From the NCBI GenBank assembly GCA_031763465.1, contig JARFOE010000203.1:5727725-5778681 (forward strand): a stretch of 50,957 nucleotides of DNA, given 5' to 3'. Positions 319-50,957 of this stretch are shown in pieces (position 1 is the first letter of the stretch; each line of letters opens with the position of its first letter). The translations under genes and the position numbers were made by a program. This stretch comes from Squatina squatina. Its lineage: Eukaryota. A model generated the notes under the pieces. The model had not been told where the DNA came from and made no database searches. It saw nothing but the letters and a program-made list of their open reading frames with translations.

Positions 319-478
319 GTAGCGCTCGTAAGTCAGGAGCCAGTTCTCTTTGCTCGTTCAGTGAATGATAACATCGCCTATGGCCTTCAGGACACGTCTC
401 CCAACTCCATCGTCAATGCTGCAAAATTGGCCAACGCGCATGGCTTCATTTCTGATATGAAAGACGGATACGAAACAG
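319..478 (+). CDS. Internal exon of a TAP-family ABC half-transporter (TAP2/TAP1/ABCB9-like), nucleotide-binding domain Q-loop region
   Basis: ttcattag|...|gtgag splice sites around a 160-nt exon reading VALVSQEPVLFARSVNDNIAYGLQDTSPNSIVNAAKLANAHGFISDMKDGYET. The QEPVLF...NIAYGL...A.A..FI motif is typical of TAP/ABCB9. The paralog cannot be resolved from one exon; the MHC context favours TAP. Confidence 0.85.
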
Positions 479-602
479 GTGAGAAGGAGTTAGGGACACA
501 GCCNNNNNNNNNNNNNNNNNNNNNNNNNNNNNNNNNNNNNNNNNNNNNNNNNNNNNNNNNNNNNNNNNNNNNNNNNNNNNNNNNNNNNNNNNNNNNNNNN
601 NN

Positions 603-5345: not shown

Positions 5346-5370
5346 ATGTACAGAGAAAGATACAATAGAG

Positions 5371-5729: not shown

Positions 5730-5829
5730 NNNNNNNNNNNNNNNNNNNNNNNNNNNNNNNNNNNNNNNNNNNNNNNNNNNNNNNNNNNNNNNNNNNNNNN
5801 NNNNNNNNNNNNNNNNNNNNNNNNNNNNN

Positions 5830-8072: not shown

Positions 8073-8289
8073 GCTGCCCCTTCTGCGAGTCGCTGTCGGT
8101 GCTGAATGTCTGAGGTGATACAGTGAAGGGAGCTCCTTATGTACAGCAGAGATAAATCCCCAAATGACATCATTAGGCCGCACTGTAACTGGCATTAATT
8201 ACAGACATTTAACAAACAGACTCACTGAACCGTTTTACCCTCTACACTCTCCCTATCATAACAATTATATAGAGGATAAATTGATGAAC

Positions 8290-8680
8290 GTCGAAAACAA
8301 GATTTCAGAACAGAGCGGCTACAACTATCAGGAAAGAGTGAATAGGCTGGCGATCCTTTCTCTAACAAGAGAGCAGAGTGAGGGCTGACCCAATAGAGCT
8401 CATCTCATTATGAACTGCTTCGCTGTGGCAAACGTCCGGTAAACCATCACACTATTTGGGAACTCCAAAGCTTTTTCTGGAAATATAAAATAATCCCCAG
8501 TAATGCCAACAGTGAATTTGGTGAAACATGTTTACCAGTAGAAGGGTTACAATGTGGAACCAGCTGCCGCATGGAGCAGTTGAAGCGAATCGCATTGATG
8601 AGTTTAAGGGGAAGCTGGATAAACACTTGTGGGTGAAGGGAATGGCAGGATCTGCTGATAAGTTGAGAGGAGGACGGTTC
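8290..8680 (+). mobile_element. Decayed CR1 LINE 3' end
   Basis: Reads like the CR1 RT C-terminus (YNYQERVNRLAILSL...; ...RRVTMWNQLP; FKGKLDK). Confidence 0.65.
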
Positions 8681-8689
8681 AGTTACAGC

Positions 8690-10665: not shown

Positions 10666-11371
10666 TGATGCTCAATCAAATAACCTGATCTGTAAAATCG
10701 CTTTTTACACACTGTGCATTCAAACGGTTTCTCTCCGGTGTGAATTTTCTGATGCTGCGTCAAGAGGCTGGATGTATAAAATCGCTTTTTACACACGGCA
10801 CATTCAAACGGTTTCTCTTCAGCGTGAATTTGTTGATGCTGGATCAAGTTACTGGACGTGTGAAATCTCTTCTTACACACTGGACATTCAAACGGTTTCT
10901 CTCCTGTGTGAATTCGCTGATGTTTGCTCAGGTCACAAGACCTGTAAAATTTCTTTGTGCACACAGTACACTCAAACGGTTTCTCCCCGGTGTGAATTTT
11001 CTGATGCTGGATCAAGTTGCTGGACGTGTGAAATCTCTTCTTACACACTGTACATTCAAATGGTTTCTCTCCTGTGTGAAATCGTTGATGTTTGGTCACT
11101 TCACTGGATGTGTAAAATCGCATTTTACACACAGTACATTCAAACGGCTTCTCTCCAGTGTGAACACGCAGGTGTGTGTCCAACAGGCTGGGCCAGCGGA
11201 ATCCTTTTCCACACACACTGCATTGTAAGGCGTCCACTCCTCGATTGCCAGATGCCCGCTGATTGGATCCAGCTGCTTCAGATGAGCTGCACCCACCATG
11301 CATTAACATTTCAGTTTCTTTCTTTATTTCCATGCTGACCCTTCGTTCCAAAGTGTACGAGCACAGACTGT
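10666..11371 (-). CDS. C2H2 (Kruppel-type) zinc-finger protein exon with 6 complete fingers and 1 cut by a gap
   Basis: Repeated CxxC-x12-HxxxH with TGEKPFEC linkers in an open frame; probable acceptor ttgtttggtag ending at 11372. Confidence 0.9.
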
Positions 11372-11612
11372 CTACCAAACAAGAAAAAAGCATCAGTGAA
11401 CTCAGCGGCAGGTTATCTGTGCCAGGGGAATCCTGCAGGAAATATAGCTACTGATATCAAAGGAGACACTACTACAGACCTTGCAACGGTCACAGTTACA
11501 GATATTTCCCTANNNNNNNNNNNNNNNNNNNNNNNNNNNNNNNNNNNNNNNNNNNNNNNNNNNNNNNNNNNNNNNNNNNNNNNNNNNNNNNNNNNNNNNN
11601 NNNNNNNNNNNN

Positions 11613-12300
11613 GGGAGACTACTCGACGAAGGCTTTACCCAGCCAACAGGGTCTACAGGCCTAGAGTCACTTTCCTGGAACTGTCTGAGGAAGAGTGCAT
11701 GAGGAGGCTGCGCTTCTCCAGACAGGCTGTCACTGACCTGTGCAGCCTCCTGCAACAAGACTTAATGCCTGCTGGTCCAGGGGGGCATGCTCTGCCCGTG
11801 GCAGTGAAAGTCACCACCGCCCTTAACTTTTTTGCTTCAGGCTCCTTCCAGGGTGCCGCAGGTGACATTTCTCACATCAGTCAGTCTGCAGTTCATAAAT
11901 GCATAAAACAGGTCACCAATGCCCTCTTTGCCAGGGCCAACGACTACATCTGTTTTCCAATGGATGCCAACAGTCAGAATGAAAGGGCAGTGGGATTTGC
12001 TGCAGTGGCTGGCTTCCCTCGAGTGCAGGGGGTCATAGATTGCACACATATTGCCATCAAGGCACCTGACAATCAGCCAGCAGCCTTTAACAGGAAAGGT
12101 TATTATTCTATCAATGTGCAGTTGGTCTGTGATCACCACCACAGGATCATGCAGGTGTGTGCCCGGTTTCCAGGCAGCTGTCACGATGCCTTCATTCTGC
12201 ACCAGTCAACCATCCCCCCACTATTCCACTCGTGTCAGAACTTCAAAGGCTGGCTGATAGGAGACAAGGACTACCCCCTCCACACATGGCTCATGACACC
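11613..12300 (+). mobile_element. PIF/Harbinger transposase (HARBI1-like DDE nuclease), partial and bounded by gaps
   Basis: Open frame with ALNFFASGSFQ, ISQS, GFPRVQGVIDCTH, NRKGYYSINVQLVCD, FPGSCHDAFIL and WLIGDKDYP motifs. Confidence 0.9.
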
Positions 12301-12810: not shown

Positions 12811-13163
12811 AGTAGTCACATCCTGTCAATTGGAATACATACCCATTATCCCTACTCTGTCTTCTACCTCCCACCCAATTCTCTACCCCTGTCAATAGGT
12901 CGCCTCCAGTTCACGTGCTTTCATTTTTGCTAACAGTCCCTTGTGTGGAACCTTGTTGAATGCCTCGAAATCCATATAAATAACATCCATAGACATCTGA
13001 TCAAGATGTTNNNNNNNNNNNNNNNNNNNNNNNNNNNNNNNNNNNNNNNNNNNNNNNNNNNNNNNNNNNNNNNNNNNNNNNNNNNNNNNNNNNNNNNNNN
13101 NNNNNNNNNNTTAAAAGGTGCGCTAGGCGAGTGTGTGTTGACCTGCTGTGGTTGAGCACTCAC

Positions 13164-13308
13164 CTGTCCTGGTAATGCAGTCCCTGGAGCTGAGTGGCCA
13201 GGTACTGGGGCAGCTCCCACGTCACTTCGTTGGTTTGAACGCTCCAGTAATAATAGCAGCCGGTGTTCTCATCCCACACCTCTTGCCAGTCGCCCATCTC
13301 CACGTTAA
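13164..13308 (-). CDS. FNBP4: Formin-binding protein 4 exon encoding a WW domain
   Basis: tgtacag|...|gtgagt around a 145-nt exon reading NVEMGDWQEVWDENTGCYYYWSVQTNEVTWELPQYLATQLQGLHYQD, essentially the FNBP4 first WW domain as I recall it. Confidence 0.85.
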
Positions 13309-13404
13309 CTGTACAGTGACAGACAAGGACCACATTCGTTACTCGCACACTCATGTCAAGCACAAAGCCCACCCACTCCCAGCACACATGGTCCNNNNNN
13401 NNNN

Positions 13405-15786: not shown

Positions 15787-16400
15787 TCTGTTCTGAATCT
15801 GTCCCATTTAGCACGGTGGTAGTGCCACACAACACGATGGAGGGTGTCCTCGGTGTGAAGACGCGACTTTGTCTCCACAATGACTGTGCGGTGGTCACTG
15901 CTACCAATGCTGTCATGGACAGATGCTTCTGCTACCAGTAGATTGGTGAGGACAAGGGTCAAGCAGGTTTTTCCCTCGTGTTGGTTCTTTGACCACCTGT
16001 CGCAGCCTCTGTCCGGCAGCAACGTCCTTCAGGACATGACCAGTTCGGTCAGTAGTGGTGCTATCGAGGTGATAGGTGGTAATCAGCAGGAGGTTTCCTT
16101 GCCCGTGCTTGACCTGAAGCCATGAGATTTCATGGGGGCCAGAGTCATTGTTGAGGTCTGACTGTATACCACTGTGCTGCCTCCTCGGCTGGGTCAATCC
16201 TGACGTTGGGCAGAGACATCCTCAGGGATGGTGATGGAGGAGTCTGGGACATTAGCTGAAAGGTGTGATTCTGTGTCAGGCTGTTGCGTGACTAGTCTGT
16301 GGGACATCGCTCCCAATTTTGGCACAAGTCCCTAGATGTTGGTGAGGAGGGTTTTGCAGGGTCGACTGGGCTGGGTGTGCTGTTTTTGATTCCGTAGCCG
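15787..16400 (-). mobile_element. LINE (CR1-group) endonuclease fragment
   Basis: LRQVVKEPTRGKNLLD and IGSSDHRTV, which are AP-endonuclease motifs. Confidence 0.75.
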
Positions 16401-16749
16401 GTGCCATGTGATCCGTCCAGTTTATTCTTATTTTGAAGCAATTGTGGACAACTGAGTGGCTTGCTAGGCCATTTCAGAGGGCAGATAAAAGTCAACCACA
16501 TTGCTGTGGGTCTGGAGTCACATATAGGCCAGACTAGGTAAGGATGGCAGATTCCCTTCCCGAAAGGGCATTACAACAATCCGATTGTTTTAATGTCACC
16601 ATTGCTGACACGAGCTTTTTTATTCCAGATTATTTAATTAACTGAATTTAAATTCCACAGCTGATGTGGTGGGATTTGAACTCACATCTCTGGATCAATA
16701 GTCCAAGACTCTGGATTATTAGTTAACCACTACGCTACCGAGTCCCCAT

Positions 16750-17275
16750 GTGTAGAGGGAGCTTTACTCTGTATCTTTCCTCTGCTGGACCTGTCCTTGG
16801 AGTGTTTGAGGGGACAGTGTCGAGGGAGTTTTAATGTGTATGTTTCCACTGCTGGACTTGACCTGGGAGTGTCTGATGGGACTGTGCGGAGGGTGCTTTA
16901 CTCTGTATCGAACCCGTGTGTACCTGCCCTGGGAGTGTTTGATGGGGCCAGAGTAGAGAATGCTTTATTATGTATCTAACCCGTGATGCACCTGCCCTGG
17001 GTATGTTTGGGGAAAGAAAGGGAGCTTTACTCTGCATCTAAACCCGTGCTGTCCCTTCCCTGGGAGTGTTTGATAGGACAGTGTCGAGGGAGCTTTACTC
17101 TGTATCTAACACGTATTCAACCTGCCCTGGGAGTAGTTGACGGGACAGTGTAGAAGGAGCTTTACTTTGTATCTAACCCCATGCTGTACCTACCCTGGGA
17201 GTAGTTGACGGGACAGTTTAGAGGGAGCTTTACTCTACCTAACCCGTCCCGTGCTGTGCCTGCCCTGGGAGTATT
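16750..17275 (-). repeat. ~63 bp satellite array in reverse orientation
   Basis: Repeated TGCCCTGGGAGTGTTTGATGGGACAGTGTAGAGGGAGCTTTACTCTGTATCTAACCC. Confidence 0.88.
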
Positions 17276-17429
17276 TCCCAACCTCTTTTCCCCCTCTCTC
17301 CCCCTCCGCCTCTCTCCCCCATTATCCTTTGTGTTAAGTGCTTCCTCACATCTGTGTGTGTGTGTTTCTGTATGTCTGAGCCTGTGATTCTGCATGTGTG
17401 GTTCTGTGTGTCTATAACCTGACACAGTG

Positions 17430-18660
17430 AACCCTGTCCAACAAAAATCTCTCAATCTGAGTTTGAATTTTACTATTGGGCTCCGGCCTCAACAGCTTTT
17501 TTTGGCAGAGAGTTCCTGATTTCTGCTACCCTTTGTGTGAATAAGTGCTTCCTGACATCACCCCTGAACGGCCCAACTTTAATTTTAATGGTATGCCCCC
17601 TTGTTCTGGACTCTCCCACCAGATGAAATAGTATCTCTCCCTCATCTTAAACACTTCAATGATATCGCCTTTAATTTTCTATATTCAGGTTGATAAACTC
17701 AGGAACAGAAATGGTCTGGAGCGGGGATGGGAGACAGTAACAGTGGTAATGTCAGTGTAAGGTAGGGGGAGCTCTGTATTGAACCTGCCTGTGAGGGCTC
17801 GATGCTGATACTCTGTATAAAGCAGAGGTTGGAACACAGCAGACCATTCCGCCCCTTGAGCCTGTCACCCCATTCAGTGAGATCAGGGTTGATCTGTATT
17901 TTAGCTCCAGCCACCTGACTTGGCTTCCTATCCTTTTAGACCCTTGCCTGGCAAAAAAAGCTATTCATCTCAGATTTAAAATCATTAATTGTGCCAGCAT
18001 TTACTGCTTTTTGTGGGAGAGAGTTCCACACTTCCACCACCCTTTGTGTGGAGAAATGTTTCCGAACATCTCTCCTGAATGGCCTGGCTTTGAAATTAAG
18101 ATTATGTCCCCTTGTCCTGGACTCCTCCACCAGTGGAAGAAGGTTCTCTCTATCCACCAGCTCCTTTCAACATCCTAAAATCCCCAAGCAAATTAAATCA
18201 TCCCTTAACCTCCTATGTTGTAAGGAATACAAACCCAGTTTATGTAATCTCTCATATTCCTGGAACTCCGTCCCTAGCAGCACTGTGGGAGGACCTTCAC
18301 CACACGGACTGCAGCGGTTCAAGCAGGAGGCTCACCACCAGCTTCTCGAGGGCAATTAAGGATGGGCAATAAATGGCAGCCTTGTCAGCGACGCCCACAT
18401 CCCAGGAACAAATACAATAAATAATTGAACCCTCGGGAGCCCTGGTAACATTCTGGTGAATCTGTGCTGCGCTCCCTCCAAGGCCAGTATATCCTACCTG
18501 AGGTGCGGTGCCCAGAACTGAAGGCAGTTCTCCAGATGGGGTCTTTTCAGAGCTCTGTGCAGCTGAAGCACCAACAATCTATTAGCTGTTTAATTATTTT
18601 TGTACCTGTCGACATTTCCACTGATTTAAGTAGTTGGACCCCTACATCTCTCTGCTCATC
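17430..18660 (-). mobile_element. Several CR1 LINE 3' fragments
   Basis: For example ESRTRGHNLNFKARPFRRDVRKHFSTQRVVEVWNSLP (17936-18157). Confidence 0.8.
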
Positions 18661-18923
18661 CTGGTCCTGGTGTCTAGTCAGTTTGAGGTCTGTGTGCGCG
18701 TCTATCTGTCTGAGTGTGTCTGTCTGCCGATCTGTGTGCATGTCTGTGTTCCATCTTCTTGTTCTTTTCCTTTTGAAATGCTGTTCGGTACCAATGTGTG
18801 GTACTTCCCCAGAAAGTGCTGATTTATTTGTTTAAATTGTTGCATGATAATTAATTTGATTCTGGTGTTTAAGAGCAGCAAACAACTCCTGCAACTCAGC
18901 AACTGATTCTCTGTTTGGAATAG

Positions 18924-19018
18924 TTCACCATTCGGTGACTGCTCCAACTTGCCCTCCGTGTCGGTCTGTCCCACTGTCCTTTCCCGGTGGGTTCGGATGG
19001 TGCAGACCGGAACAGTGA
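18924..19018 (+). pseudogene. Decayed beta-defensin exon 2 (paralog of 26711-26830)
   Basis: Ends FPGGFGWCRPEQ* versus CRGETGCCRPKQ* in the intact copy (C to F, C to W). The 5' part reads PFGDCSNLPSV, then shifts frame into CRSV. It is followed by a near-identical 3' UTR and AATAAA. No exon 1 was found. Confidence 0.7.
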
Positions 19019-19527
19019 AAGATCCAGTGAGGGATTTCCCCTAGCCCGAGCTCTCCACCTTCTCACTGAATGAAACCTCCGCTCACAGGAAGCAGGCTCT
19101 GTTTGATTGTTTAGGTCCTGTAATCCCTGACCCTGTGTTACTGCTGTCTGAATAATGGGCTGTGCTCAGAAATAAAACTCTCTGCATTGATCACAGCTTC
19201 ACCTCCGTGTCTTGTTTCTCCTTCAGGGTCAGTGTGTCCGAGGACAAGGTGTTTGGGGGGTGGAACGAGGCTGGGAGAAGATTTGGGAATCGCAGGAAAT
19301 GAGAAGAGCAAACCGCTGCAGGGAATCTCTGCAAGTGCCGAATAACACATTCAGAAAGATACTGAGGTAAGACCGGTGTCCCAGAATGTCAGCACTGTGG
19401 CTGTTCGGGGTTCAAGATATCTCAGTTGAACAGGTTTCTTTAGGCAGATTGGAAATAGACATCCATTGCATCAAACCCACAGACAGTTTGATGGGACAGT
19501 GTAGAGGGAGATTGACTCTATCTGATC
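18990..19527 (+). repeat. Local duplication, copy A (copy B at about 26802-27345)
   Basis: The defensin C-terminus, 3' UTR, polyA signal, downstream flank and satellite start align directly by eye. Confidence 0.9.
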
Positions 19528-20075
19528 TGTGCTTCCTCTATCGCATTTTTTCTCTCTTTCGCTATCTGCCTCATTTTATATCCGTCTCTCTGCTTCAACT
19601 CGCTCTGTGTCACTCTCCCCTCTTTGTTTCTTTCACTGGCTCTATCTCTCCTCGCCTCTTTTTCTCTCACTCTCTCACTCACCTTTGCTCTCTCTCTCTC
19701 TCCTCTCTACCGGTCTCATTTTTCTCTGCCTCGCTGTCTCTCGCTCTTTCTGCCTTTCTCTCCGCCTCGCTCTCAGTCCACCTCTCTCTACATCTATTGA
19801 GCCTTTGTCTTCTCTCTGCTTATTTCTCTCTCTCGCTCACTATCTTAGCCACTATCTCGTCTTTCCCTCCTCTGCCTCATTCTCTCTCTCCCTCTCTCTC
19901 CCTCTCCAGTCGCTCTGTTAATCATTTATTTTACAGTTGGTTTCCTTTCTGCCCATCTTTCTGTCACTCTTTTCTCACTCTACCACTCTTTCTCCCCTCT
20001 GTCTTTGATTCCTCTCTCTGCCCCTGTCTCTCTCCCAGTTTCTTTCCCTCTCCCTCTCCCTCTCCCTCTCCAAGA
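19528..20075. repeat. CT-rich low-complexity tract
   Basis: Degenerate (CT)n; it produces spurious Leu/Ser ORFs. Confidence 0.85.
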
Positions 20076-20559
20076 TTCCTGATGTAACAGGACTGTTCAA
20101 ACACAACACAGGCCCATCCTGTACTCCAAACACATTGCAGGAGCTGACCACAACTTCTACACCCTTAGTTTTAAAATGAGCTGTCCAGGATGTGCCAGGC
20201 CCCACCAGGGGCCTGCAAGATTTCGCTGTTTACCTAGAGGGAAGCTTGCTTTAGGTTCTAACCTCTGCCTCCAAATCTCATCCAGCTCCATTCCTGAGCT
20301 CATTTTATTACATTTCATCGTCCAGTGACCTCTCCACCCGCTTATGTCCACATTGTCTCCGATGTGCTCCGCTCTGTAAATCTATTGGGTCTTGTTTTTC
20401 CTTATTATTGACAGTCTGTTTCTTCAATTTAATCTGTTTGGTCATTTGGTACAATTTTGAGGAATTGGCCAGCGATTCCTGCTGATCTGCTGAGTGTATT
20501 TCCATATAGGGCACAGATCTCTCTGCGGGGCAGGGTTAAAATAATGCTAAAACAGTTAT

Positions 20560-23070
20560 TCTACAGAATGTATTGGAGGGAACATATTTTAGTAAATCTA
20601 TAAAATAAGTAAAATAATCGTGGGACATTTCAGTGACAAGAAATGTTCTGGCCAGAGGTCGGGAAAGGGGAAAAGGGAATGGAGAATTTACAGTGTGTTC
20701 AGGACTCCTTTCTCACCCAGTGTGTAAGAAGCTCAGTGCGAGAGGAATCACTGCTTGATCTATAATGGGGAATCAACCAGAGCAGATCAAAGATGCTCAA
20801 CTGAAAATCTCGCCTTTATCAATCACAACATATTGAGGTGATGAAAATGGAACTGGGGAAGATAAACTGGAACAGAATATTGACCGAGATAGAACAGCAG
20901 TGGGAAATATTTAAAAAGGTGACCAATAGAGTTCAGGAGAAATATATTCTACTTAACAAACGAGGCAATAATGAAACATCATTGATGAATAAAGAGAAAA
21001 GGGCAAGATTGAAACTGAGGAACAAGGCAGACACGGAGTACAGTGACAGTAAAGGAGAGGATGACAAAGGGAATAGGAAGAGGTTAGCAAAGAATTAGAG
21101 AAATTACATTAAACTTGTACAGAACCTTGGTTAGACCACACGTGGAGCACTGTGTAGAGTCCTGGTTTCCTAATTACAAAAGGAGACCAAGGCACTGTTG
21201 TAGGTGCAACAAAGATTGAAAAGTATGATACCAGAACTGCGGGGTTATAAGTATCCAGAATGATTAAACCTGCTGGGGCTCCTATGTCTAGAGAAGAGAA
21301 GGCTGAGTGGTGATGTAATAGAGATCTTGATGGGGCAGGTGTAGAGAATATGTTACCACTTGTGGACAGTTCAAAACTAGGATTCATAAATATAAGATCG
21401 TCATTAATAAATACAATAAGGAATTCAGGAGAAACCTCTTTACCCAGACATTCCAATTCTGGGCACCACACTTTAGGAAGGGCGGGAAGGCATTGGAGAG
21501 GGTACAGAAGAGATTTACTAGAATGGTTCCAGAGTTGAAGGGTTACAGTTACGTGAATAGACTGGCGAAGCTGGAGTCATTCTCCTTCGAGCAGAGAAGG
21601 CTAGGAGGAGATTTGATAGAGGTGCTTAAAATCATGAAGGGCTTAGACAGAGTAAATAAAGAGGAACTGATTCCAATCGCTGACTAGTCAATAACCAGAT
21701 TTAAGGTGATTGGCAAAAGAACTTGAGGTGACATGAAGAAAACTTGTCAATGCCACACATTGCTAGGATTTGGAATGCACTGCCTGTCCGGGTGCTGGAT
21801 GCAGATTCAATGGTAACTTTCAAATGGCAATTGGATAAAAACTTGAAGGGAGAAGAAATTGCAGGGATATGGGGAAAGAACCAGGGGAGTGAACTAACTG
21901 GATTGCTCTTCGAAAGAGCCGGCACAGAATCGATGGGTCGAATGGCCTCCTTGTGTGCTGTATTGTTCTTTGATTCTATGATCGTAAACACCTTAATTAA
22001 TCCTTTGTGTCAGGGAATACTTACCTAGTCTGTACAAGGTGCCCTCATAATGGAGCCCTTTTAGCTCCGGGGTCATTCTGGTGAATGTGCACTGCACCCA
22101 CTCCAAGCCCAATATATCCTTCCTGAGATGCGGTGCCCAGACTGAATGCAGTTCTCTAGGTGGGGTCTAACCAGAGCTCTGGACAGCTGAAGCTTCACTT
22201 CATCCCCTTTGTATTCCAGCCCTCTTGAGATACAGACTCACATTCCATTAGACTTTTTCATTATTTTTTGTACCTGTCCATTATAATTTTGTGATTCCTG
22301 TACTCGGACACGTAAATCTCTCTGGTCATCCACAGTTCCTATCCTATCGATGTTTCGAGAAGTGGACGTGTGTTTATGTATGTATGTGTGGGTTGTCTGT
22401 CGATATTGGATGAAGGCAGCAAGTGCTTTGTAGCCACATTTGGTGATGATACAAAGATATCATTTCTGGAGTAAGAGAATTTCAAAGCAAAGACGTTCTT
22501 TTAAATTTGTATAGAACCTTGGTTAGACCACACTTGGAGTACTGTGTACAGATCTGGTCTGCATATTAGGAAAAGGATATAGAGACACTGGAGAGGGTGC
22601 AAAATAGATTGACAAAATGATACCAGAACTGGGCGGTTATAAGTAACAAGAATGACTGAACATGCTGGGGCTCGTTTCTCCAAAAAAGAGCAGGCTGAAG
22701 GATAATCTAATGAAGATCTTTCAAATTATGAAGGGGTTTGATAGGGTAGATGTAGAGCAGATGTTGCCATTTGTGGGGAGCCCAAAACTAGGGTCATAAA
22801 TATCTGCAATTACTAATAAATCCACTAAGGAATTCATGAGAAACCTCTTTAACCCAGGGAGTGATTAGAATGTGGAGCTTGTGAGCACATGGAGTAATTG
22901 AAGTGAATGGCAGAGGTCCTTTAAGGAGAAGGTAGATAAGTACATGAGAGAGAAAGGAATAGAAGGATATGATAGGGTGAGGTGAAGTAAGGTAAGAGGA
23001 TGCTCGTGTGGAGCATTAACACCAGAATGGACCTGCTGCGCTGGATCTGTGCTGTAAATACTATGTAATT
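20560..23070. mobile_element. Cluster of nested CR1 LINE fragments, mostly +, one - at about 22000-22350
   Basis: LERVQKRFTRMVPELKGYSYVNRLAKL...RRLGGDLIEVLKIMKG and LVRPH.E motifs recur several times. Confidence 0.8.
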
Positions 23071-23429
23071 GGTTGTTGAGTCAAGACATGGTACAGCACT
23101 CAAAACAATCGTCAGCAATGGGCTGTGTATTGGGGTCAAAACTCCCACCTTTCACCCCTACTGATCTAAAGGACTTGTGTAAAATGAATGTGGGGACTTC
23201 AAACACAGTCCTTGGTGAGGGATCAGATTTGTGTCAAACTGGACCCTAAATTGGCAGACTGACTGTTGCTTGCCGAACAAGTGTCTTGAAAAGACTGTTT
23301 AAACTCTCTCTCTCTCTAACTGATTTCAATCCACCTACAACCGTAACCCTCTCCCTCCAGCTCAGTATGTGTGTGTGTGTCTGACTGTCCGTGCGTATTG
23401 TGTTGTCTGCACATGTTTTTGTGTGTTTC

Positions 23430-24680
23430 TTGGCAGCATGTGCAGATCCCGCATCTATTTTACCCTCTACATTCCGCGCAGTGCCAGTTTCTGAGCTGGT
23501 GTTGCGAGTGTCAGGTACAGTGACGGAGGGCAGTCTTCATCTCCTCTCTCCTCCATTACTTTGGGGACAGGCTGTTTGGGTGGAAGACCTTGGCCATCTG
23601 AAAGCAGAAAGGCACAAGAGTCGGGTTATGGTGAGGGGAGGGAGGAACACGAGATATCCATGTGTGCAGCATCAGCAGCTTGTAAGTGAGAAGATATTGT
23701 GGGGTATCGGGTAAGTGGGATGTGAGAAGGAGGATTAGGAATGAGCCTACCGTTACTGTCCCCAAGGGCTTCAGTTTTCCCGTTCCCACAGCCTCGGTGC
23801 TTTCCCCTCCAATGAGGTCGAACACCGACTCCTCCAGGTGGTAAAGGCCTGTAAAGCGGCTTGGCCGCCTCTACTATGCTGTTGCTCGTGTCGGTTGTGA
23901 GCCACCTTGGCCTGTGAGAGAAAGGGAATTGTGTCAGTGAGGGTAGTGAGTGTTTGGCTGATGTCTGTGATAGTTGTACAGCTGTCAGTGTGTGCAAGGT
24001 CTGAGATGTGGGTGTTATTGTTGCAGCACTGGTAAGGCTGCGAGATGAAGTGAATTTGCGATTGTGAGGTCTCTGGTGAAAGGTAGAGACTGTTGGTAGG
24101 TGAGTGATGGGGCTGTGGTGCATTGAGCAGTGTGTAAGGCTTGTGGTGCAGATGGTGGAATGTGGCAATTGCTGAAGCCTTCACTCACCTTGACCTGTCG
24201 TGTGAAGCCATTAAACTTCTTCTGGCACTAGATCCATGTCCGCGGTATGACACCGTTGGTCGTGACACGAAACCATTGACCGTGACGTACCCAGATGTCT
24301 CCTGCCACGGCCTCCTGTCCACTGTCACGACCAAAGACTCCAGAGCTGCATCGGAGTATCTTCGGGCTCGTTCTCTTTGCTGCTGCTGAGCCTTGTGTCC
24401 CAGCAGCAATTCCAGCTCCTACTCCAATGACAATGAGGTGCTGCTGCATCAAAGCACCTCAAGTGTGGATAGTGGAGAAAGACCAGGTCAGACATTACTG
24501 GCCTGGTGAGCAGTAAGCCAATTAGCAGTGCGTTTAGTGAGATCAGCACTACAGTCATATAAGTGAGCGAGCAGCATGAATTTTGCATGTTGCCTGGAAC
24601 ACTTTGAACGGGTCAGATAGCACTGACGCTGATAGTCATGACACTGCAAGTTTTTGCGCAATGTCCAATTCTGAGGCCTT
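23430..24680 (-). mobile_element. Harbinger-type element remnant with a Myb/SANT-like accessory ORF
   Basis: QQQRERARRYSDAALESLVVTVDRR (about 24310-24390) resembles the R..RFS...LE.LV..V..R start of Harbinger Myb/SANT proteins. Boundaries are approximate. Confidence 0.5.
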
Positions 24681-25028
24681 AGATTTGAACACTGAGAGGA
24701 TTTGATGGGCTAAATGTCTTGTTAAGAACATAAGGACATAAGAATTAAGAGCAGTGGTGGGGCATATGGCCCTTCAATCCTGCTCCAGCATTCAAGAAGA
24801 TCACGGATGATCTTCGACCTGAACTCCACTTTCCCGCTCGATTCCCATAATGTTTGTGTACCTGGTCCATCATGCCAGCTGAGCTCCTGTGTTAAAACCT
24901 GGAGTTAGGCCAAAACACACAACCTTGTCTTCTGAAAGATAGAGAACTGCCAACTGATCCATCACACAGAAAGGAAACGCCTTTTCCCAGGATATCGTCA
25001 GAGCAGAGCCACTCCCCGTCTGTGTGAT

Positions 25029-25034
25029 TATAAA
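25029..25034 (+). promoter_or_regulatory. TATA box of the beta-defensin gene
   Basis: TATAAA about 80 nt upstream of the ATG at 25111. Confidence 0.6.
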
Positions 25035-25110
25035 TCCAGCAAACTCTGATTGCAGATTCAGAACATTTCCACTACAGCCACCTGACCCTGACTCAGAAAC
25101 AACACGGAAC

Positions 25111-26830
25111 ATGAATCCTCTAATCTTAATTCTTGGATTTCTGTTGCTGATGAGGCCCACCTCCACTCAAAAGAGGCTCGATGGAGCTCCCGGTCTGAGG
25201 ATCCGAGGAAAAGTAAGTTCTGGTCTGTAAATTTCTCCCATGTCTCCGCAGCCAGTGTTCAGGCAGTTTTATTTTAAAAAGAACAATTCTCTGTTTGAAT
25301 GTCACGGTTTCGTTGGTTGAGTGAAGGTGAAGGTGAGGTTGTAAGAAAGTCTGAAGAATTTACCCTGAACCAGTTCCACAGGTGAATCCCCTGATTGTTT
25401 ACTCTGAGCGGGTAGAGGGAATGGTGGCTCTTGTTTGCTGATCCAAACAGATCAGCAATAAAACCACAAATTACTGATCGGTGCTAAGTGGGCGGATCTC
25501 AGCCGGAGCATTGACCCGGTCGTGAAAGTCTGTAAGTGGCCTCAGTATCCAGTACTACGGAGGGGAAACTCCCAGTCACTGCTCCCGATCACTGCTACCT
25601 GCTGCACAGTGTGAGAGTGCGGACTCTGTGTGAGGACAGGATCGGGAGCTCCTTCAGTCACTTTCCCCCACACCCACTGCCCAGTCTCACAGATGAAGAA
25701 TGGTGAATTGGGAGCGATACTGGAGGTGTGTGTGGAACCGGTCCCCAGACACGAGTCAGCTTTTCATAGCATAACAGGAAATAGGATCAAAGGGGTTTCA
25801 GAACAGGTTTATTTAAATTGCATAATTCTGCAGCTGTCATAGTGATCGGGTTGAGAGAACACGGACTAAGTAGAGGAGACAAGCGGTGAATTGATCCATT
25901 GTCAGTAGCTGGGTGTCAGTTTGGCTCAGTTTGGAAGTTGAGTGAACAAGTTGTGGGTTGATGCCCCACACTGGTACATACAGCCTGGCACTGAGGAAAT
26001 GTTGCACTGTTGGAGGTAAAAATCCAGCACTGGGGGTGTGCTACACTGCTGGAGGTAAAAGCCCAGCACTGGGGGAGTGCTACACTGCTGGAGGTAAAAG
26101 CCCAGCACTGGGGGAGTGCTACACCGCTGGAGGTGTCATGTTATGGATGAAACGTTCAACAGGGACCCGCTTTACCTGTTCATGGGGCAGGAAACATGTG
26201 GTGACATTATTTGAAGAGCTGGGAGTTCTCCTAGTGTCTTGGACCAACCTCACTCCCTCAACCAACATGACCAGAAACTCCCCATCCTGTCAAATCCCAT
26301 TTGCTGTTTATGGGACTTTGCTGTGAGCCAATTGGCGGCCGCGTTTGCTACAGAACAGTGTCGTCACTTCAGAAACATCCGCTGTTTGTGAAACTCTTTG
26401 GGTCTTCTGGTGCCGGGAAAGGTTCTACATCAATGTCAGATCCTTCCTCTCCATGTCTCTGGTCTCAGATAGCGGGTGTGGGGGCTCCATTCGGAGGGAA
26501 CCCCCTTGGGCTGCCCTTCAGGACGAAGAGTGAGTCTGTGCAGGTCGGGGGAGGGGGAGCGGTGCGGGCTTTCATTAATATAAAAGGGTTAAGGTCCGTG
26601 TGTGGTCCAGAGTCAGTCCCAGTAACACTGACAGACTCAGCTTCATGTTTTCTCATTGTTCTCCCTCCCTCTGTGTACAGAACCATAAATCAATTCATTC
26701 TTCATTCTAGATTATAGGGCGCTGTGAGTCGTATAAAGGAATGTGTCGCGTCAACTGTAACGCAGATGAGGTGTCTTCCCTCGGCCTATTCTGCCGCGGT
26801 GAAACCGGATGTTGCAGACCGAAACAGTGA
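25111..26830 (+). CDS. Beta-defensin precursor, 2 exons (25111-25212, 26711-26830), 73 aa
   Basis: Exon 1 MNPLILILGFLLLMRPTSTQKRLDGAPGLRIRGK has a hydrophobic signal peptide and ends at a gtaagt donor (phase 0). Exon 2 follows ttcattctag and reads IIGRCESYKGMCRVNCNADEVSSLGLFCRGETGCCRPKQ*, with six cysteines spaced C-X6-C-X3-C-X11-C-X5-CC and G-X-C before Cys2. There is a TATA box upstream and AATAAA downstream. Confidence 0.88.
25930..26445 (+). mobile_element. SINE (probably DeuSINE/L2-tailed type) in the defensin intron, with an internal ~39 bp tandem repeat
   Basis: The tail TTGCTGTTTATGGGACTTTGCTGTG...AATTGGC is shared with other copies in the window (about 3100-3240 and 31550-31670, reverse). 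The unit CAGCACTGGGGGAGTGCTACACTGCTGGAGGTAAAAGCC occurs about 3-4 times. Confidence 0.55.
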
Positions 26831-26982
26831 AAGATCCAGTGATGGATTCCCTCCAGCCCGAGCTCTCCACCTTCTCACTGAATGAAACCTCCGCTCACGG
26901 GAAGCAGGCTCTGTTTGATTGTTTAGGTCCTGTAACCCCTGACCCTGTGTTACTGCTGTCTGAATAATGGGCTGTACTCAGA

Positions 26983-26988
26983 AATAAA
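26983..26988 (+). terminator. Polyadenylation signal of the beta-defensin gene
   Basis: AATAAA about 150 nt after the stop; conserved in the paralog at 19171-19176. Confidence 0.7.
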
Positions 26989-27299
26989 ACTCACTGCATT
27001 GATCACAGCTTAACATCCGTGTCTTGTTTCCCTTCAGGATCAGTGTGTCCGAGGACAAGGTGTTCGGGGGGTGGAATGAGGCTGGGAGAAGAGGTGGGGA
27101 ATTACAGGAAATGGGAAGAGGAACCCGCTGCAGGGAATTCCAAATAGTCTAAATTCCAATAACACATTCGGAAAGGTACTGGGATAACACTGGTGTCCCA
27201 GAGTGTCAGCACTCTGACTGTTCGGGGTTCAGAGGAGCTGAAGGCATTTCTTCAGGCAGATTGGAAGCAGACATAAATTGCATCAGACCCACAGACCTT

Positions 27300-27790
27300 T
27301 TGATGTGACAGTACAGAGGGAGATTTACTCTGTATCTAACCTGTACTATATCTACCCTTGGGAATATTTGATTGGACAGTGTAGAGGGAGCTTTACACTG
27401 TATCTAACCCATGCTATACCTGCCCTGGGAGTGTTTGATGGGACAGTGTAGAGGGAGTTTTACTCTGTATCTAACCCCGTGCTGTACATGCCCTGGGAGT
27501 GTTTGATGGGACAGTGTAGAGGGAGCTTTACCCTGTATCTATCCCGTGCTGTACCTGCCCTGGGAGTGTTTGATGGGACAGTGTAGAGGGAGTTTTACTC
27601 TGTATCTAACCCCGTGCTGTTCCTGCCCTGGGAGTGTTTGATGGGATAGTGTGGAGGGAGCATTACTCTGTATCTAACCCGTGCTGTACCTGTCCTGGGA
27701 GTGTTTGATGGGACAGTGTGGAGGGAGCTTTACCCTGTATCTACCCCGTGCTGTACCTGCCCTGGGAGTGTTTGATGGGACAGTGTAGAG
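27300..27790 (-). repeat. ~63 bp satellite array with homogeneous copies
   Basis: About 8 near-identical units of the same family as 8690-10365. Confidence 0.92.
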
Positions 27791-28224
27791 CAGGGTGGCC
27801 AGTATTTGGGCTGGAGGGCCATTTAACCAGTTTCGGTGAGTTGTTGAGGGTCACACACCAGTGTTCCCCCTGAGGGGCGGGGCCGGGCGGTCACGGACCA
27901 ATCCCGAGGTCACGTGCAGGAGGCTCAATAACGACACACAAATAAAATAGATTGTGATTCCAGCAACCATTCAAATTTGTTCTGGCATTTATTGTAAAAT
28001 GAGCCCCTCATGTCGTTTTCACACTTAATAAAAATAACAACACTTACGAACAGGCTGATGAACATGATGTAGGTTTACGAGTCACATTGAAAGGTGCACG
28101 GTCTGTTTATTCCAAATAGTCTGAATTCATTCTTACAGTGGAAAATGAGAGATCGATTCTGCTTCCACTGGCAATTCTAAACCAGTTATAAATCAAGGAT
28201 AATACCATTTATACACCATTTATC

Positions 28225-28515
28225 CAGGGGGCACAGTCTCAGGATAAGGGGTCGGCCATTTAAGACAGAGATGAGGAGGAATTCCTTCACTCAGGGGTTT
28301 GTGAATCTTTGGAATTCTTTACCCCAGAGGACTGTGGATGCTGAATCTCTGAGTATATTAAAGACTGTGACAGACAGATTGTTGGACTCCAGGGGAATCA
28401 AGGGATATGGAGATCAGGCGGGCTAGTGGAGTAGAGGTCGATGATCAGCCATGATCTTATTGAATGGTGGAGCAGGCTCGAGGGTTCGACTCCTGCTCCT
28501 ATTTCTTATGTTCTT
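28225..28515 (+). mobile_element. CR1 LINE 3' end
   Basis: RGHSLRIRGRPFKTEMRRNSFTQGFVNLWNSLP. Confidence 0.8.
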
Positions 28516-28539
28516 TAAAAACTGCACATAAACGTACAA

Positions 28540-29219
28540 TGTTTTGCTTTTTCTCTCTGTCTCACTTCATTTCTTTCTGTCTTTCTGCCAACGTTATTCT
28601 CTTCTTTTTCTCTCCCTGCTCTCTTTCTCTGTGGAGGTCTCTCTCTCCCTTGATCTTGTCTGTATCCCTCTCACTATCCCTCTGTCCTTCCATGTTGTCT
28701 ATCTTTCTCTCCCTCTTGTCTCTGTCCCCTCTCTGTTTCTCGCTCTCTTTATCTCTGAGTCTATTTTTCATCCCGTCAGTCATTCACTCTTTCTCCTGTC
28801 TCTACGCTTCTGTATTGCTGTTTTACTCTGTCCTCCCTATTCTCTCTACTCTGTGATTCTGTGTCTCTCTCCCCTTCTCACTCAGATTTCTCTGTCGCTC
28901 ACTCTCACTCTGTGTCTGTTTGTCCCTCTTTCCTTCTCTCTGCCCTGCTTTCACTCTGATTTACTCTCTGTTTCTCCATCTTGCACTCTGTCTCTCTCAT
29001 TGTCTACCCCTGTTACACTCGCACTCTCTTTCAGTCCCATTTCTCTCACTATCTTTCTGTTCTCTGTGCCCTCGCTCTGCTTTCTATCTGTTTCTCTCTG
29101 TGCCTATCTGTCTCCCATCTCTTGTCTTTCTCTCTCTCTCTAACTGTCGCTCCGTCCCTCCAGCTTGTCTATCTTTCTATCGCTCTTGTCCCTCTCCCTT
29201 CTCTCCCATTCTCCTGCTG
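28540..29219. repeat. CT-rich low-complexity tract
   Basis: Degenerate (CT)n; positional counterpart of 19528-20075. Confidence 0.85.
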
Positions 29220-42733: not shown

Positions 42734-42982
42734 CTTTGGGCTCCGGGGTCCCGCCCGACAGGTTCTTCCAAACATTTAAATTCTGTTTCATGATGGCGAT
42801 ATTGCTGGAGATCCCCGCCTCTCCACCCTGTATTGTGTGGCCCTGGAACTCGGGGATCCGCGGCACCTCCTTCTTCAGGTTGAAATCCATGTAGAGAACC
42901 TCATCCCCGTCCAGCTCCAGATCGAACTGCTTGTTGGGGCTGCGCTCCTGCACCATGTAGACCTGGAACTCTCGGTGCAGGT
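42734..42982 (-). CDS. MHC class II alpha chain, exon 2 (alpha-1 peptide-binding domain)
   Basis: ctctcccag|...|gtaag around a 249-nt phase 1-1 exon reading LHREFQVYMVQERSPNKQFDLELDGDEVLYMDFNLKKEVPRIPEFQGHTIQGGEAGISSNIAIMKQNLNVWKNLSGGTPEPK. It has the DGDE.Y.DF..K..V.R.PEF signature and an NLS glycosylation site, and closely resembles shark class II alpha as I recall it. Confidence 0.95.
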
Positions 42983-47943: not shown

Positions 47944-50033
47944 CTAACCAGAGTCAGAATCACTGGTGTCTGATGAACTCGATCCACTGGAAGTGCTACT
48001 AGTGTCAGATCCTGAAGAACTACTGCTGCTGGCACTGAGCCGCGAAGGGCCCACTGGCTGAACAGGATCCGGCTTTTCAGTTGCTGCAAAGAGAAATCTT
48101 ATTAAAGTATTGTTTCTCACAAGTGGTTTGAAAAGGTACACAAATTTTTACCATCTAACAAGCCTGGCTGAACACTTAAGCTCCNNNNNNNNNNNNNNNN
48201 NNNNNNNNNNNNNNNNNNNNNNNNNNNNNNNNNNNNNNNNNNNNNNNNNNNNNNNNNNNNNNNNNNNNNNNNNNNNNNNNNNNNNNNNNNNNNNNNNNNN
48301 NNNNNNNNNNNNNNNNNNNNNNNNNNNNNNNNNNNNNNNNNNNNNNNNNNNNNNNNNNNNNNNNNNNNNNNNNNNNNNNNNNNNNNNNNNNNNNNNNNNN
48401 NNNNNNNNNNNNNNNNNNNNNNNNNNNNNNNNNNNNNNNNNNNNNNNNNNNNNNNNNNNNNNNNNNNNNNNNNNNNNNNNNNNNNNNNNNNNNNNNNNNN
48501 NNNNNNNNNNNNNNNNNNNNNNNNNNNNNNNNNNNNNNNNNNNNNNNNNNNNNNNNNNNNNNNNNNNNNNNNNNNNNNNNNNNNNNNNNNNNNNNNNNNN
48601 NNNNNNNNNNNNNNNNNNNNNNNNNNNNNNNNNNNNNNNNNNNNNNNNNNNNNNNNNNNNNNNNNNNNNNNNNNNNNNNNNNNNNNNNNNNNNNNNNNNN
48701 NNNNNNNNNNNNNNCTGCCCGCTCACATCCTGCAGCCGTTTTTCTAACTCTTTCTTCTTCTCCAGAGCCAATTCTTCCTTGGACTTCCCTGCTTGTTTCT
48801 TTGCTGTAGGATTAATGCAGTAGCAGTTAGTAAAGTGACTTCCCAATTTGGGCAGACTGAAAGGGACAGGAGTGGGAACCAAAACCTCGCAGTGTCAAGA
48901 CATACCCCCTCCCAACAGGCTCCACACAAGCCTCCTCCCACAACCTCTTCATCTAACCCGATCAGCATATCCTTTTGTCCTCGTGTTTTTCTAGCATCCT
49001 CTTGAATGTATCTACGCTAGAATCTTTTTTGAATTTTGAGGGGATAACAACTTTATCAAGTGCAGGTGGTGCATAGGTTAATTACATTTTCATACCCTAC
49101 ACATGGGTAAAGGAGGTTCACATGAACAGATGAGTTTAATGGACATCCCCAAAATGCTTTTTCTTACCCAAGTTAGACCAGACAGAATTTCCCCTTTGGG
49201 CATCTGCTTCAAATCTGCAGTCAGTCTTTCTGGTCAGCAATGTTGACAGTTAATCATACTGTGGGAATTTGGGGCATAAATTACAACCCCAACACGAGCA
49301 AGGGCTTCCTACTTACACTGNNNNNNNNNNNNNNNNNNNNNNNNNNNNNNNNNNNNNNNNNNNNNNNNNNNNNNNNNNNNNNNNNNNNNNNNNNNNNNNN
49401 NNNNNNNNNNNNNNNNNNNNCTTACACTGGTCAATATTTACACCAGCTCCCATCCAACAAGGATTCCTGCACATGACAGTCTGTTTCACACAGAGCCCAC
49501 TCTACTGGCTGTTTCTGACACCAAAAAAGATTATCCCTACCCAACAGGCCACTGGTCCTAAATTGTAAGTATAAAGCACAAGCTAGCTAGGAGACCAATC
49601 ACAACATTTCATATTTTTAGGCTTAATCATTTTCTGACTACACAAAAGATGGATTAAATGAACACAGGCCCCAGAATAGCAGAACACATTACAACTGCCC
49701 ATCCTGTACACTTCAGACTTACAGTAAGGTTTGCGAGGTTTCTTCCGTAAGCAGGACATAACATAGCGTTCAAGCTCCCGAAGGGTGGAGGGTTTAAGAG
49801 TTTCAAAGTCTATCTCAATCTCATCGGGATTGGAGTCCCGAAGGGATGGCTCTCGGGATTGGATGATATGTACCACACGGCCTAGTTTGTCACCAGGCAG
49901 TTTATTAATGTCCAAGCTCAACTGTCGCTTCTCGTCATAAGTCATGGGCCTGCAGTTATCTTCTTCTTCTGAATCATAGCCAGGAGGGGGTGGTGGTGGT
50001 GGTGGGGGAGGTTGTTTCACCTTCTTGGACTGC
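47944..50033 (-). CDS. BRD2: Bromodomain-containing protein 2 (RING3), last three coding exons: 50033-49723 (ET domain), 48803-<48715 (cut by a gap), 48083-47944
   Basis: ET domain [27 protein letters not shown]...[17 protein letters not shown], then [22 protein letters not shown], and a terminal [11 protein letters not shown]. The LRKKPRKPY and DTSDSDSG endings fit BRD2 better than BRD3 or BRD4. Splice sites are canonical. Confidence 0.9.
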
Positions 50034-50957
50034 CTGCAAAGAGTAAACCCAAAAGTAAAAGGAAGCAGGCTCTACTGGGAAGCAAATGCACAATTCTTGA
50101 TCCCTAAACACCATCTATAAAGAACCTTTTAGAGAGAGAGTGTTCCATTGCAATTCAGTCACTGTCACCATCAGACATTTTTGGCTTCAAAATATATTCT
50201 GACTTCAAAATATATTTACACCCTTCATAGCATGCATATGCTGGAGTACATCATTGGATTAAGTATACACCGCCATGAGAATTCAGAAAGACCTAACACA
50301 CTTCAAAATATGAATAAAGAGCATTGAACTACAGCAAAGTTCAAAAATCAAACATTTGAGGCAAAGAATTAACATTTTCCAAAATAAATAGAGCAGCAAA
50401 AAAAAGTGTTCTCGAAGCCTTGCTTTACATACTGGATATTTCACACAATTCCGCATTCATCAAAGGCTTTCTGCACCTCAAGCTTCACCCTTCATTCTTC
50501 CACACCAGTTACCTTCATAGCTCTGCCATTCATAAAAACATAGATAGAAACATATTCAATATGATCATGGCTGATCATCTAAATTCAGTACCCTGTTCCN
50601 NNNNNNNNNTATTGCCAGATCTAACATCTTGCTCAGGTCTGTAGACTTAACTATTTAGAATTCTATCTGTAACTCTCAATTTCCCAGACCAACAATACAA
50701 AAACAAAACACTGCAGATGCTGGAAATCTGAAATAGAAACAGAAAATGCTGGAAACACTCAGCAGGTCAGGCAACACCTGTGGAGAGAGAAACCGAGTTA
50801 ACGTTTCAGATCGATGACCTATCATCAAAACTGGAAAATGTTAGAGATGTAACAGATTTTAAGCAGGTACAGAGGCAGGGAAAGGGGGCAGGGGAGGAAA
50901 GAACAAAAGGGAAGATCTGTGATAGGGTGGAAGGCAGGAGAGATTAAATGACTAAAG

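What the first reader, a model, noticed from the sequence alone, without database searches (positions are those of the whole stretch)
25029..26988. Hidden two-exon beta-defensin gene in an MHC-like neighbourhood of a cartilaginous fish
Seen: TATA box, a signal-peptide exon (34 codons, gtaagt donor), a 1.5 kb intron, an in-phase exon IIGRCESYKGMCRVNCNADEVSSLGLFCRGETGCCRPKQ* and AATAAA, all on one gap-free contig. The ORF track misses exon 2 because it is only 39 codons. Established: six cysteines ending in CC after a signal peptide define beta-defensins, and mammalian clusters lie outside the MHC core. Inference: this is a functional antimicrobial or chemotactic peptide gene placed between TAP-family and class II alpha/BRD2 sequences, i.e. 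an innate effector inside an ancestral-type MHC. I have an unverified recollection that MHC-linked shark defensins have been reported, so novelty may be at the gene or species level.
Basis: partly seen in the sequence, partly recalled or inferred. Interest (0 to 1): 0.9.

Follow-up and report, generated by a model that had tools for sequence, protein, structure and literature searches.

The report
Shark beta-defensin from large gene family
This is an intact two-exon shark gene for a small six-cysteine peptide of the beta-defensin type, one of about two dozen related copies in this genome, which likely acts as a secreted antimicrobial defence peptide and probably lies in the shark's main immune-gene region (MHC), although that position rests only on a heavily gapped scaffold.

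Summary
The gene is real. TATA box, signal-peptide exon, 1.5 kb intron, six-cysteine exon (C-x6-C-x3-C-x11-C-x5-CC) and AATAAA sit at the stated coordinates on a gap-free 13.4 kb contig. Pfam's only match is beta-defensin (below cut-off), and the predicted fold's top matches are beta-defensins. It belongs to a family: 18 other contigs carry exon 2 (11 intact, 7 degenerate) and 23 carry exon 1. The peptide exon diverges 2-3 times faster than its flanks. Both keep the same defensin core; no read decides between them. The neighbours are shark class II alpha, BRD2-type and TAP2-like exons in the published MHC order, but 9 and 13 N-gaps separate them from the defensin, and no gap-free link was found. 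I recall, unverified, a published report of MHC-linked nurse shark beta-defensins; ten searches did not surface it. Verdict: a new member of a known kind, moderately interesting.

The parts
25029..25034 (+). TATA box (TATAAA)
   Evidence: Sequence; TATAAA or a one-base variant at the same place in the 9 paralogues aligned
25111..25212 (+).
   Evidence: Translation; hydropathy peak over residues 3-14; same hydrophobic leader in 19 aligned copies. No SignalP available; cleavage site inferred
25213..25218 (+). Donor A, GTAAGT, phase 0; private to this copy
   Evidence: Best U1 match, 7 of 9; GTAAGT at this position in 0 of 22 paralogues
25223..25228 (+). Donor B, GTCTGT, phase 1; the donor of this copy's long-exon-1 subfamily (exon 1 coding part then ends at 25222)
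   Evidence: GT at this position in 7 of 9 long-exon paralogues; needed for an in-frame product in the intact paralogue L014
25227..25232 (+). Donor C, GTAAAT: positional homologue of the donor of the short-exon copies; phase 2 here, gives out-of-frame products
   Evidence: GT here in 22 of 22 paralogues (21 by alignment, L023 by eye), phase 1 in the 13 short-exon copies; out of frame here
25223..26717 (+).
   Evidence: Intron homologous along its length to paralogue introns, about 72-93% identity in the main blocks
26709..26710 (+).
   Evidence: AG at this position in 0 of 18 paralogues
26716..26717 (+). Acceptor B, family AG, phase 1
   Evidence: AG at this position in 16 of 18 paralogues
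26718..26830 (+).
   Evidence: Pfam PF13841 E 0.0045; AlphaFold2 helix plus three strands, pLDDT 83.5; top fold matches beta-defensins
26831..27007 (+). 3' UTR with AATAAA (26983-26988) and likely cleavage site after the CA at 27006-27007
   Evidence: Sequence; a contig of another species' run guessed to be RNA has a poly(A) loose end behind 27007 (run X8)
18924..19533 (+). Second unit on the same gap-free contig: shares the last codons, stop, 3' UTR, AATAAA (19171) and downstream flank, but has an unrelated 5' part
   Evidence: 86% over 549 nt with 26806-27347; further copies elsewhere in G000
42741..42962 (-). Neighbour: MHC class II alpha, alpha-1 domain exon (9 N-gaps away)
   Evidence: Pfam PF00993 E 2.7e-15; shark and ray class II alpha hits 61-84%
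49583..50068 (-). Neighbour: BET/BRD2-type ET-domain exon
   Evidence: Pfam PF17035 E 6.5e-29; bromodomain exon further along the scaffold
319..480 (+). Neighbour: ABC-B transporter exon, probably TAP2 (13 N-gaps away)
   Evidence: This exon alone is ambiguous: ABCB1 and ABCB9 score above TAP2; the exon upstream on the same strand has TAP2 as best hit, E 4.5e-18

Best explanation
This is an intact two-exon beta-defensin gene of a shark, one copy of a family of about two dozen, which likely makes a secreted, disulfide-bonded defence peptide and probably sits in a cluster within the MHC between TAP2 and class II alpha. Shown: promoter motif, open frames, six cysteines, poly(A) signal, family membership, birth-and-death pattern, fast divergence of the peptide exon. 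Inferred: transcription from the TATA box; splicing at either the family's phase-1 junction (74 aa) or this copy's own phase-0 junction (73 aa), both giving the same core (my odds: own junction dominant 0.5, family junction 0.35, out-of-frame products dominant 0.15); ER entry and signal cleavage near residue 19; disulfides 1-5, 2-4, 3-6 by homology; a helix-plus-three-strand fold (predicted). The core alone is only weakly cationic (net +2); with the basic pro-segment kept it is +6, so membrane-directed killing of microbes would depend on how much of that segment is retained, and chemokine-like attraction of leukocytes is a plausible second role.
For: Anatomy. Motif absent from 100 shuffles. 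Pfam Defensin_beta_2 matches 11 of 15 aligned members, best E 7.5e-05. Family profile hits three PDB sequences, all human beta-defensins, best E 0.00069. Atlas top clusters are beta-defensins, 0.82 and 0.76, lead level. Model pLDDT 83.5; Foldseek ranks 1-4 are beta-defensins, TM 0.63-0.71, E 0.27-0.41; VIA top five are four beta-defensins and the big-defensin beta-defensin-like domain, Z 3.8-4.6. 11 of 18 paralogous exon-2 copies keep six cysteines and an open frame although amino-acid-changing distance averages 0.63 against 0.27 in the adjacent intron and 0.23 in the UTR (66 pairs): cysteines are being preserved. In another species' runs guessed to be RNA the 3' UTR stands far above intron depth, one contig ends in poly(A) at the expected site and one joins 5' UTR to 3' UTR. 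Scaffold order TAP2-like, class II alpha, BRD2-type, ZIP transporter fits the elasmobranch MHC order described in PMC10751288.
Against: Pfam score 17.5-17.8 bits is under the 22.2 cut-off; no fold match reaches E 0.001 or Z 5 (short peptide). Third cysteine spacer is 11, one longer than the 9-10 of the avian motif in PMC3161384. No read or contig spans this copy's junction; the RNA label is a guess and the 3' UTR signal could come from any paralogue or from the second unit type. Four of six splice combinations are out of frame. The nearest exon-2 relatives L002 and L023 have aberrant cysteines. dN exceeds dS in only 15 of 66 intact pairs, so positive selection is not formally shown. MHC position: 23 of the window's 29 gaps are exactly 100 N, 0 of 90 C1-set exons lie on this scaffold, the class II beta hit is on another contig, and no MHC exon was found in gap-free sequence with a defensin.
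Confidence: 0.72

Rival explanations
1. This copy is a young pseudogene or null allele: the two new splice sites are neutral damage, and most transcripts splice out of frame or are not made.
For: 7 of 18 paralogous exon-2 copies are degenerate; four of six junction pairs are out of frame; closest relatives L002 and L023 carry odd cysteines; no transcript seen for this copy.
Against: Promoter, start codon, both in-frame junctions, six cysteines, stop and poly(A) signal are all intact; the two private sites are the textbook best donor (7 of 9 U1 matches) and the first AG after the pyrimidine tract, and together they keep the frame.
Confidence: 0.15
2. The gene is a real beta-defensin but its place in the MHC is an artefact of scaffolding: a multi-copy contig dropped among MHC fragments.
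For: Window is 30 small pieces joined mostly by 100-N gaps with no end overlaps of 20 nt or more to the defensin contig among 149 pieces tested; unrelated fragments (potassium channel, GPCR, zinc finger, transposase) are interleaved; every other defensin copy found is on a small contig of at most 37 kb.
Against: The 13.4 kb defensin contig is the longest piece in the window, the easiest to place; the other anchors are in the published order and BRD2 exons are in the right order; I recall (unverified) MHC class II-linked beta-defensins in nurse shark.
Confidence: 0.2
3. The peptide has the beta-defensin fold but its main job is not killing microbes; it acts in reproduction, as an enzyme or channel binder, or in a defensive secretion, as other peptides of this fold do.
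For: Core net charge is +2, and across 15 copies ranges from -3 to +6; the fold list also holds an amylase inhibitor, an egg defensin and animal venom peptides at similar low scores; large fast-diverging families are not unique to antimicrobials (own knowledge).
Against: Best sequence and fold matches are ordinary vertebrate beta-defensins; duplication with fast change in the mature peptide is the known pattern of antimicrobial beta-defensin clusters (PMC3161384, passages).
Confidence: 0.2

Closest known systems
Vertebrate beta-defensins (Pfam PF13841 Defensin_beta_2, PF00711; human beta-defensin 106/hBD-6, hBD-1, hBD-4, crocodile CpoBD13)
   Same: Signal-peptide exon followed by a six-cysteine exon ending in CC; predicted helix plus three-stranded sheet; best sequence and fold matches.
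   Different: Third spacer 11-12 residues in this family; only about 30-35% identity to the nearest solved structures; long glycine-rich pro-segment in this copy's subfamily, shortened and basic in this copy.
Avian beta-defensin cluster (PMC3161384, passages read)
   Same: Tandem-type family with conserved signal peptides and rapidly changing mature peptides.
   Different: Avian genes have four exons and no broken copies were seen there; here two exons and 7 of 18 exon-2 copies are degenerate.
Nurse shark beta-defensins reported in the MHC class II region (recalled from memory, about 2023; not found in the library, nothing read)
   Same: If my recollection is right: same gene type, same animal group, same position beside class II genes.
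   Different: I recall two characterised genes; this genome holds about two dozen copies. Orthology could not be tested because no such sequence was returned by any search.
Elasmobranch core MHC (PMC10751288; abstract, first part of Results, term searches of text and supplement)
   Same: Order class Ia region with TAP, then class II, BRD2, then slc39a7 and col11a2 matches the scaffold.
   Different: That paper's text and supplementary tables contain no 'defensin' or 'defb'; its figures could not be seen.

Membership tests
Beta-defensins | Six cysteines in the pattern C-x4-6-C-x3-5-C-x9-10-C-x5-6-CC (avian definition, PMC3161384) | tested here: met
   Spacing 6-3-11-5-0: six cysteines, terminal CC, four of five spacers in range; third spacer one residue longer, as in the whole family.
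Beta-defensins | Profile match at the curated Pfam threshold | tested here: inconclusive
   PF13841 is the only match, 17.5-17.8 bits against a cut-off of 22.2; 11 of 15 members match at E up to 1.
Beta-defensins | N-terminal secretory signal peptide on an upstream exon | tested here: met
   Hydrophobic core residues 3-14 by hydropathy, conserved in 19 aligned copies; no dedicated predictor was available.
Beta-defensins | Short helix plus three-stranded antiparallel sheet | tested here: met
   Predicted H2-5, E8-10, E17-20, E30-34, pLDDT 83.5 (best of five models; three scored 62-64); top structural matches beta-defensins at rmsd 1.2-2.2.
Beta-defensins | Disulfide connectivity 1-5, 2-4, 3-6 | not testable with these tools
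Beta-defensins | Cationic mature peptide | tested here: inconclusive
   Core +2; +6 if the segment after the predicted signal cleavage is kept.
Beta-defensins | Antimicrobial or chemotactic activity | not testable with these tools
   Needs synthesis and assay.
Expressed gene | Spliced, polyadenylated transcript of this copy | tested here: inconclusive
   No junction for this copy; poly(A) end at the equivalent of 27007 and a 5'-to-3' UTR join in another species' contigs.
MHC-resident gene | Physical linkage to TAP, class II and BRD2 in contiguous sequence | tested here: inconclusive
   Same scaffold in plausible order, but 9 and 13 N-gaps; no MHC exon among 356 open frames scanned from gap-poor defensin contigs; no end overlaps.
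Big defensins | Extra hydrophobic N-terminal domain of about 40 residues ahead of the beta-defensin domain | tested here: not met
   Only 15-19 polar, basic residues lie between predicted signal and first cysteine; structural matches cover only the C-terminal domain of big defensins.

The most novel reading that the evidence does not exclude
This shark carries an array of two dozen fast-diverging beta-defensins inside the core MHC between TAP2 and class II alpha, far larger than the few copies known from fish, and this copy has slid its intron from phase 1 to phase 0 through two compensating point changes (a new donor 10 nt upstream and a new acceptor 7 nt upstream) while a sister lineage swapped the cysteine core for an unrelated proline-rich exon that keeps the defensin 3' end.
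Probability: 0.25. Interest if true: 0.62.

Novelty: new member of a known kind. Interest (0 to 1): 0.38.

Why it matters
If the linkage holds, it adds another shark lineage to the case that innate effector peptides sat inside the ancestral jawed-vertebrate MHC, and shows the cluster can expand to about two dozen copies by birth and death. The family is missed by ordinary annotation (no relative came back from three large protein searches), and gives a dozen natural peptide variants of charge -3 to +6 to assay. The copy-private pair of splice sites is a simple, testable candidate for compensated intron sliding: one RNA-seq library would decide it.

Tried and rejected
1) Pseudogene by nonsense codon: paralogues read Trp where this copy reads a stop just before exon 2, which first suggested an upstream acceptor at 26679-26680 and a premature stop. 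Rejected after the DNA alignment showed that stretch to be intron in the whole family. 2) Transcript evidence: no RNA holder listed for the stretch; four runs of contigs laid gave no junction for this copy; the difference table was cut, so whether related species carry the two private splice sites could not be read. 3) Protein databases: exon-2 alignment, 2 candidates, none significant, 19-74 aa searched; exon-1 alignment, 613 candidates, none at E up to 10, 13-74 aa searched; profile search of 1.84 billion representatives gave 4 hits, cysteine-repeat proteins, three looked up and none a named vertebrate defensin. These blanks do not show novelty. 4) Two weak exon-2 hits (C765751, C189) showed no DNA homology or motif and were dropped. 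5) Scaffold-independent linkage: 63 frames from the window's contig and 293 of 366 listed frames from the larger paralogue contigs were scanned with Pfam; only one reverse transcriptase hit; exons under 60-75 codons would be missed. None of 90 C1-set hits lies on a defensin contig. 6) Literature: 10 full-text searches found no paper on shark beta-defensins or their MHC linkage; two DOIs recalled from memory are not held. The library lacks most subscription journals, so this is not evidence of absence. 7) Earlier scan findings: none. 8) The tree of 15 copies is mostly unresolved, 3 of 12 inner branches supported.

Full report
OBSERVATION. All lie in the N-free stretch 15787-29219. The cysteine spacing is 6-3-11-5-0. 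A defensin-type pattern occurs once in the six frames of the window and in 0 of 100 shuffles.

IDENTITY. Pfam gives one family, Defensin_beta_2, E 0.0055 and 0.0045 for the two versions of the exon, below the curated cut-off; 11 of 15 aligned family members match it. A profile of 12 intact copies hits three PDB sequences, all human beta-defensins. The Atlas returns beta-defensin clusters at lead level, 0.82 and 0.76. AlphaFold2 on the family alignment gives a helix and three strands, mean pLDDT 83.5 for the best model; Foldseek ranks 1-4 are beta-defensins, none at E 0.001, and VIA-align's top five are four beta-defensins and the C-terminal domain of a big defensin, Z 3.8-4.6. Each line is weak, as expected for 36 residues, but all point the same way. 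Disulfide pairing was not measured.

A FAMILY, NOT A SINGLE GENE. Searching the genome with exon 2 gave 19 matches including the window; two weak ones were dropped for lack of DNA homology, and two more came from the exon-1 search, giving 18 paralogous exon-2 copies. Eleven keep six cysteines and an open frame; seven are degenerate (extra or lost cysteines, stops, shifted acceptor). Exon 1 is on 23 other contigs, 22 with the donor region. These are lower bounds from a capped search, and some near-identical pairs could be alleles. Seven other contigs hold both exons with an intact frame. Among 66 pairs of intact copies the mean amino-acid-changing distance is 0.63 and the silent distance 0.88, against 0.27 for the last 200 nt of intron and 0.23 for the 3' UTR; dN exceeds the intron distance in 64 of 66 pairs but exceeds dS in only 15. 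So the peptide exon changes much faster than its flanks while keeping cysteines; positive selection is likely but not formally shown, and the exon's high CpG content (8.8 per 100 nt against 2.3 in the intron) or homogenisation of flanks may contribute. Duplication with fast change in the mature peptide is the known pattern for avian beta-defensins (PMC3161384, passages).

THE SPLICE JUNCTION. The family intron is phase 1. Thirteen short-exon copies have a phase-1 donor at the position of window 25227. Nine long-exon copies, the window's subfamily, have that GT out of phase, and 7 of 9 carry a GT four bases upstream (window 25223) that restores phase 1; the two that lack it have stops in the exon-1 frame.

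EXPRESSION. No RNA holder was listed. Laying four runs of contigs gave no junction for this copy. In two runs of another species guessed to be RNA, summed depth over 26824-26971 (3,500-9,500) far exceeds that over the intron (0-530), one contig has a poly(A) loose end behind 27007, 19 bases after AATAAA at a CA that is not followed by genomic A's, and one contig joins 25094 to 26874 with unknown letters between. This supports transcription of the family in a relative, not of this copy; contig depth is a poor measure and the second unit type shares the same 3' UTR.

NEIGHBOURHOOD. The class II alpha exon's named hits are all sharks and rays, best 84%. BET and bromodomain exons follow in order. 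An upstream ABC exon has TAP2 as best hit; the window's own ABC exon is ambiguous. Further along lie a URGCP GTPase, a PRY-SPRY exon and a ZIP transporter exon, and an exon I recognise from memory as COL11A2-like. This fits the order in PMC10751288 (abstract, first part of Results and term passages read). But the window has 29 N-gaps, 23 of exactly 100 N; 9 lie between the defensin contig and class II alpha and 13 between it and the ABC exon. The scaffold lacks all 90 C1-set exons found in the genome, so class II alpha exon 3 and beta-2-microglobulin are not placed, and the class II beta hit is on another contig. The pattern looks like small contigs ordered on a related reference (inference). 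No gap-free link was found. Linkage is probable, about 0.75, but not shown here.

MECHANISM. Most likely the precursor enters the ER, loses a signal peptide near residue 19, forms three disulfides and is secreted. The core is net +2; with the basic pro-segment +6. Killing by binding anionic microbial envelopes, and attraction of leukocytes, follow from established knowledge of beta-defensins and are untested. Rivals: young pseudogene (0.15), misplacement on the scaffold (0.2, affects only the linkage), non-antimicrobial role (0.2).

WHAT IS KNOWN. A 2019 review lists no defensin among shark antimicrobial peptides (PMC6795676, section 14 read). PMC10751288 does not mention defensins in text or supplementary tables; its figures were not visible. 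Ten searches found no paper on shark beta-defensins. I put about 0.75 on its existence, so the linkage itself is probably not new. That human clusters lie outside the MHC core, one of them on 6p12, is also from memory. Other papers opened by term search only and found irrelevant: PMC10707392, PMC11929084, PMC12734493, PMC13337447, PMC12474679, PMC11004436, PMC7350212, PMC3509574 and bioRxiv 10.64898/2026.03.23.713620 (its supplements were not opened).

VERDICT. A real, probably functional shark beta-defensin: new member of a known kind. The additions of value are the size and turnover of the family, the uncertain and possibly slid intron, and the second unit type. Interest 0.38.

Noticed in passing
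window 18924-19533 (+); L059, L060, L061, L063: Second unit sharing the defensin's last codons, stop, 3' UTR and poly(A) signal but with an unrelated proline-rich 5' part behind an acceptor-like AG; at least four more copies in the genome, one with an in-frame 6-nt deletion; the same junction appears as loose ends in three other organisms' contigs. No exon 1 found for it; phase differs between copies, so it may be a relic.
   Followed up: partly
L014, L025, L026, L027, L028 exon 1: The window's subfamily has a glycine-rich pro-segment of variable length (up to 11 consecutive glycines in L026) between signal peptide and defensin core; the window copy has a shorter, arginine-rich version.
   Followed up: partly
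G000 contigs C336784 and C336785 (L035, L015): Consecutively numbered contigs each carry a defensin copy, one degenerate and one intact, hinting at a tandem array.
   Followed up: no
window 13160-13393 (-): WW-domain exon (Pfam E 2.5e-08), FNBP4-like by recall; FNBP4 and KCNQ4 are listed on lungfish chromosome 9 in the supplement of PMC10751288, and a KCNQ-type exon lies upstream on this scaffold (L057:6069-6485).
   Followed up: partly
window 5830-6747 (-); L054:9662-10000, L055:1-669: Rhodopsin-family GPCR frames, the window copy interrupted by a stop near 6325; several similar fragments in the region.
   Followed up: no
window 10666-11447 (-) and 11613-12300 (+): C2H2 zinc-finger array and a Harbinger-type DDE transposase fragment on small contigs between the ABC exon and the defensin; PMC10751288 notes zinc-finger genes around MHC-Ia-like genes.
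   Followed up: no
L054:184-1569 (+), L048:6543-6860 (+), L056:5066-6094 (-): URGCP-like very large GTPase, a dynamin-family GTPase exon and a chaperonin-like frame among the MHC anchors on the scaffold.
   Followed up: no
run X3 on window 25306-25581: One public run has a 276-nt contig with no difference to the intron, so a very close relative or the same species is sequenced, but at low depth and not across the splice sites.
   Followed up: no
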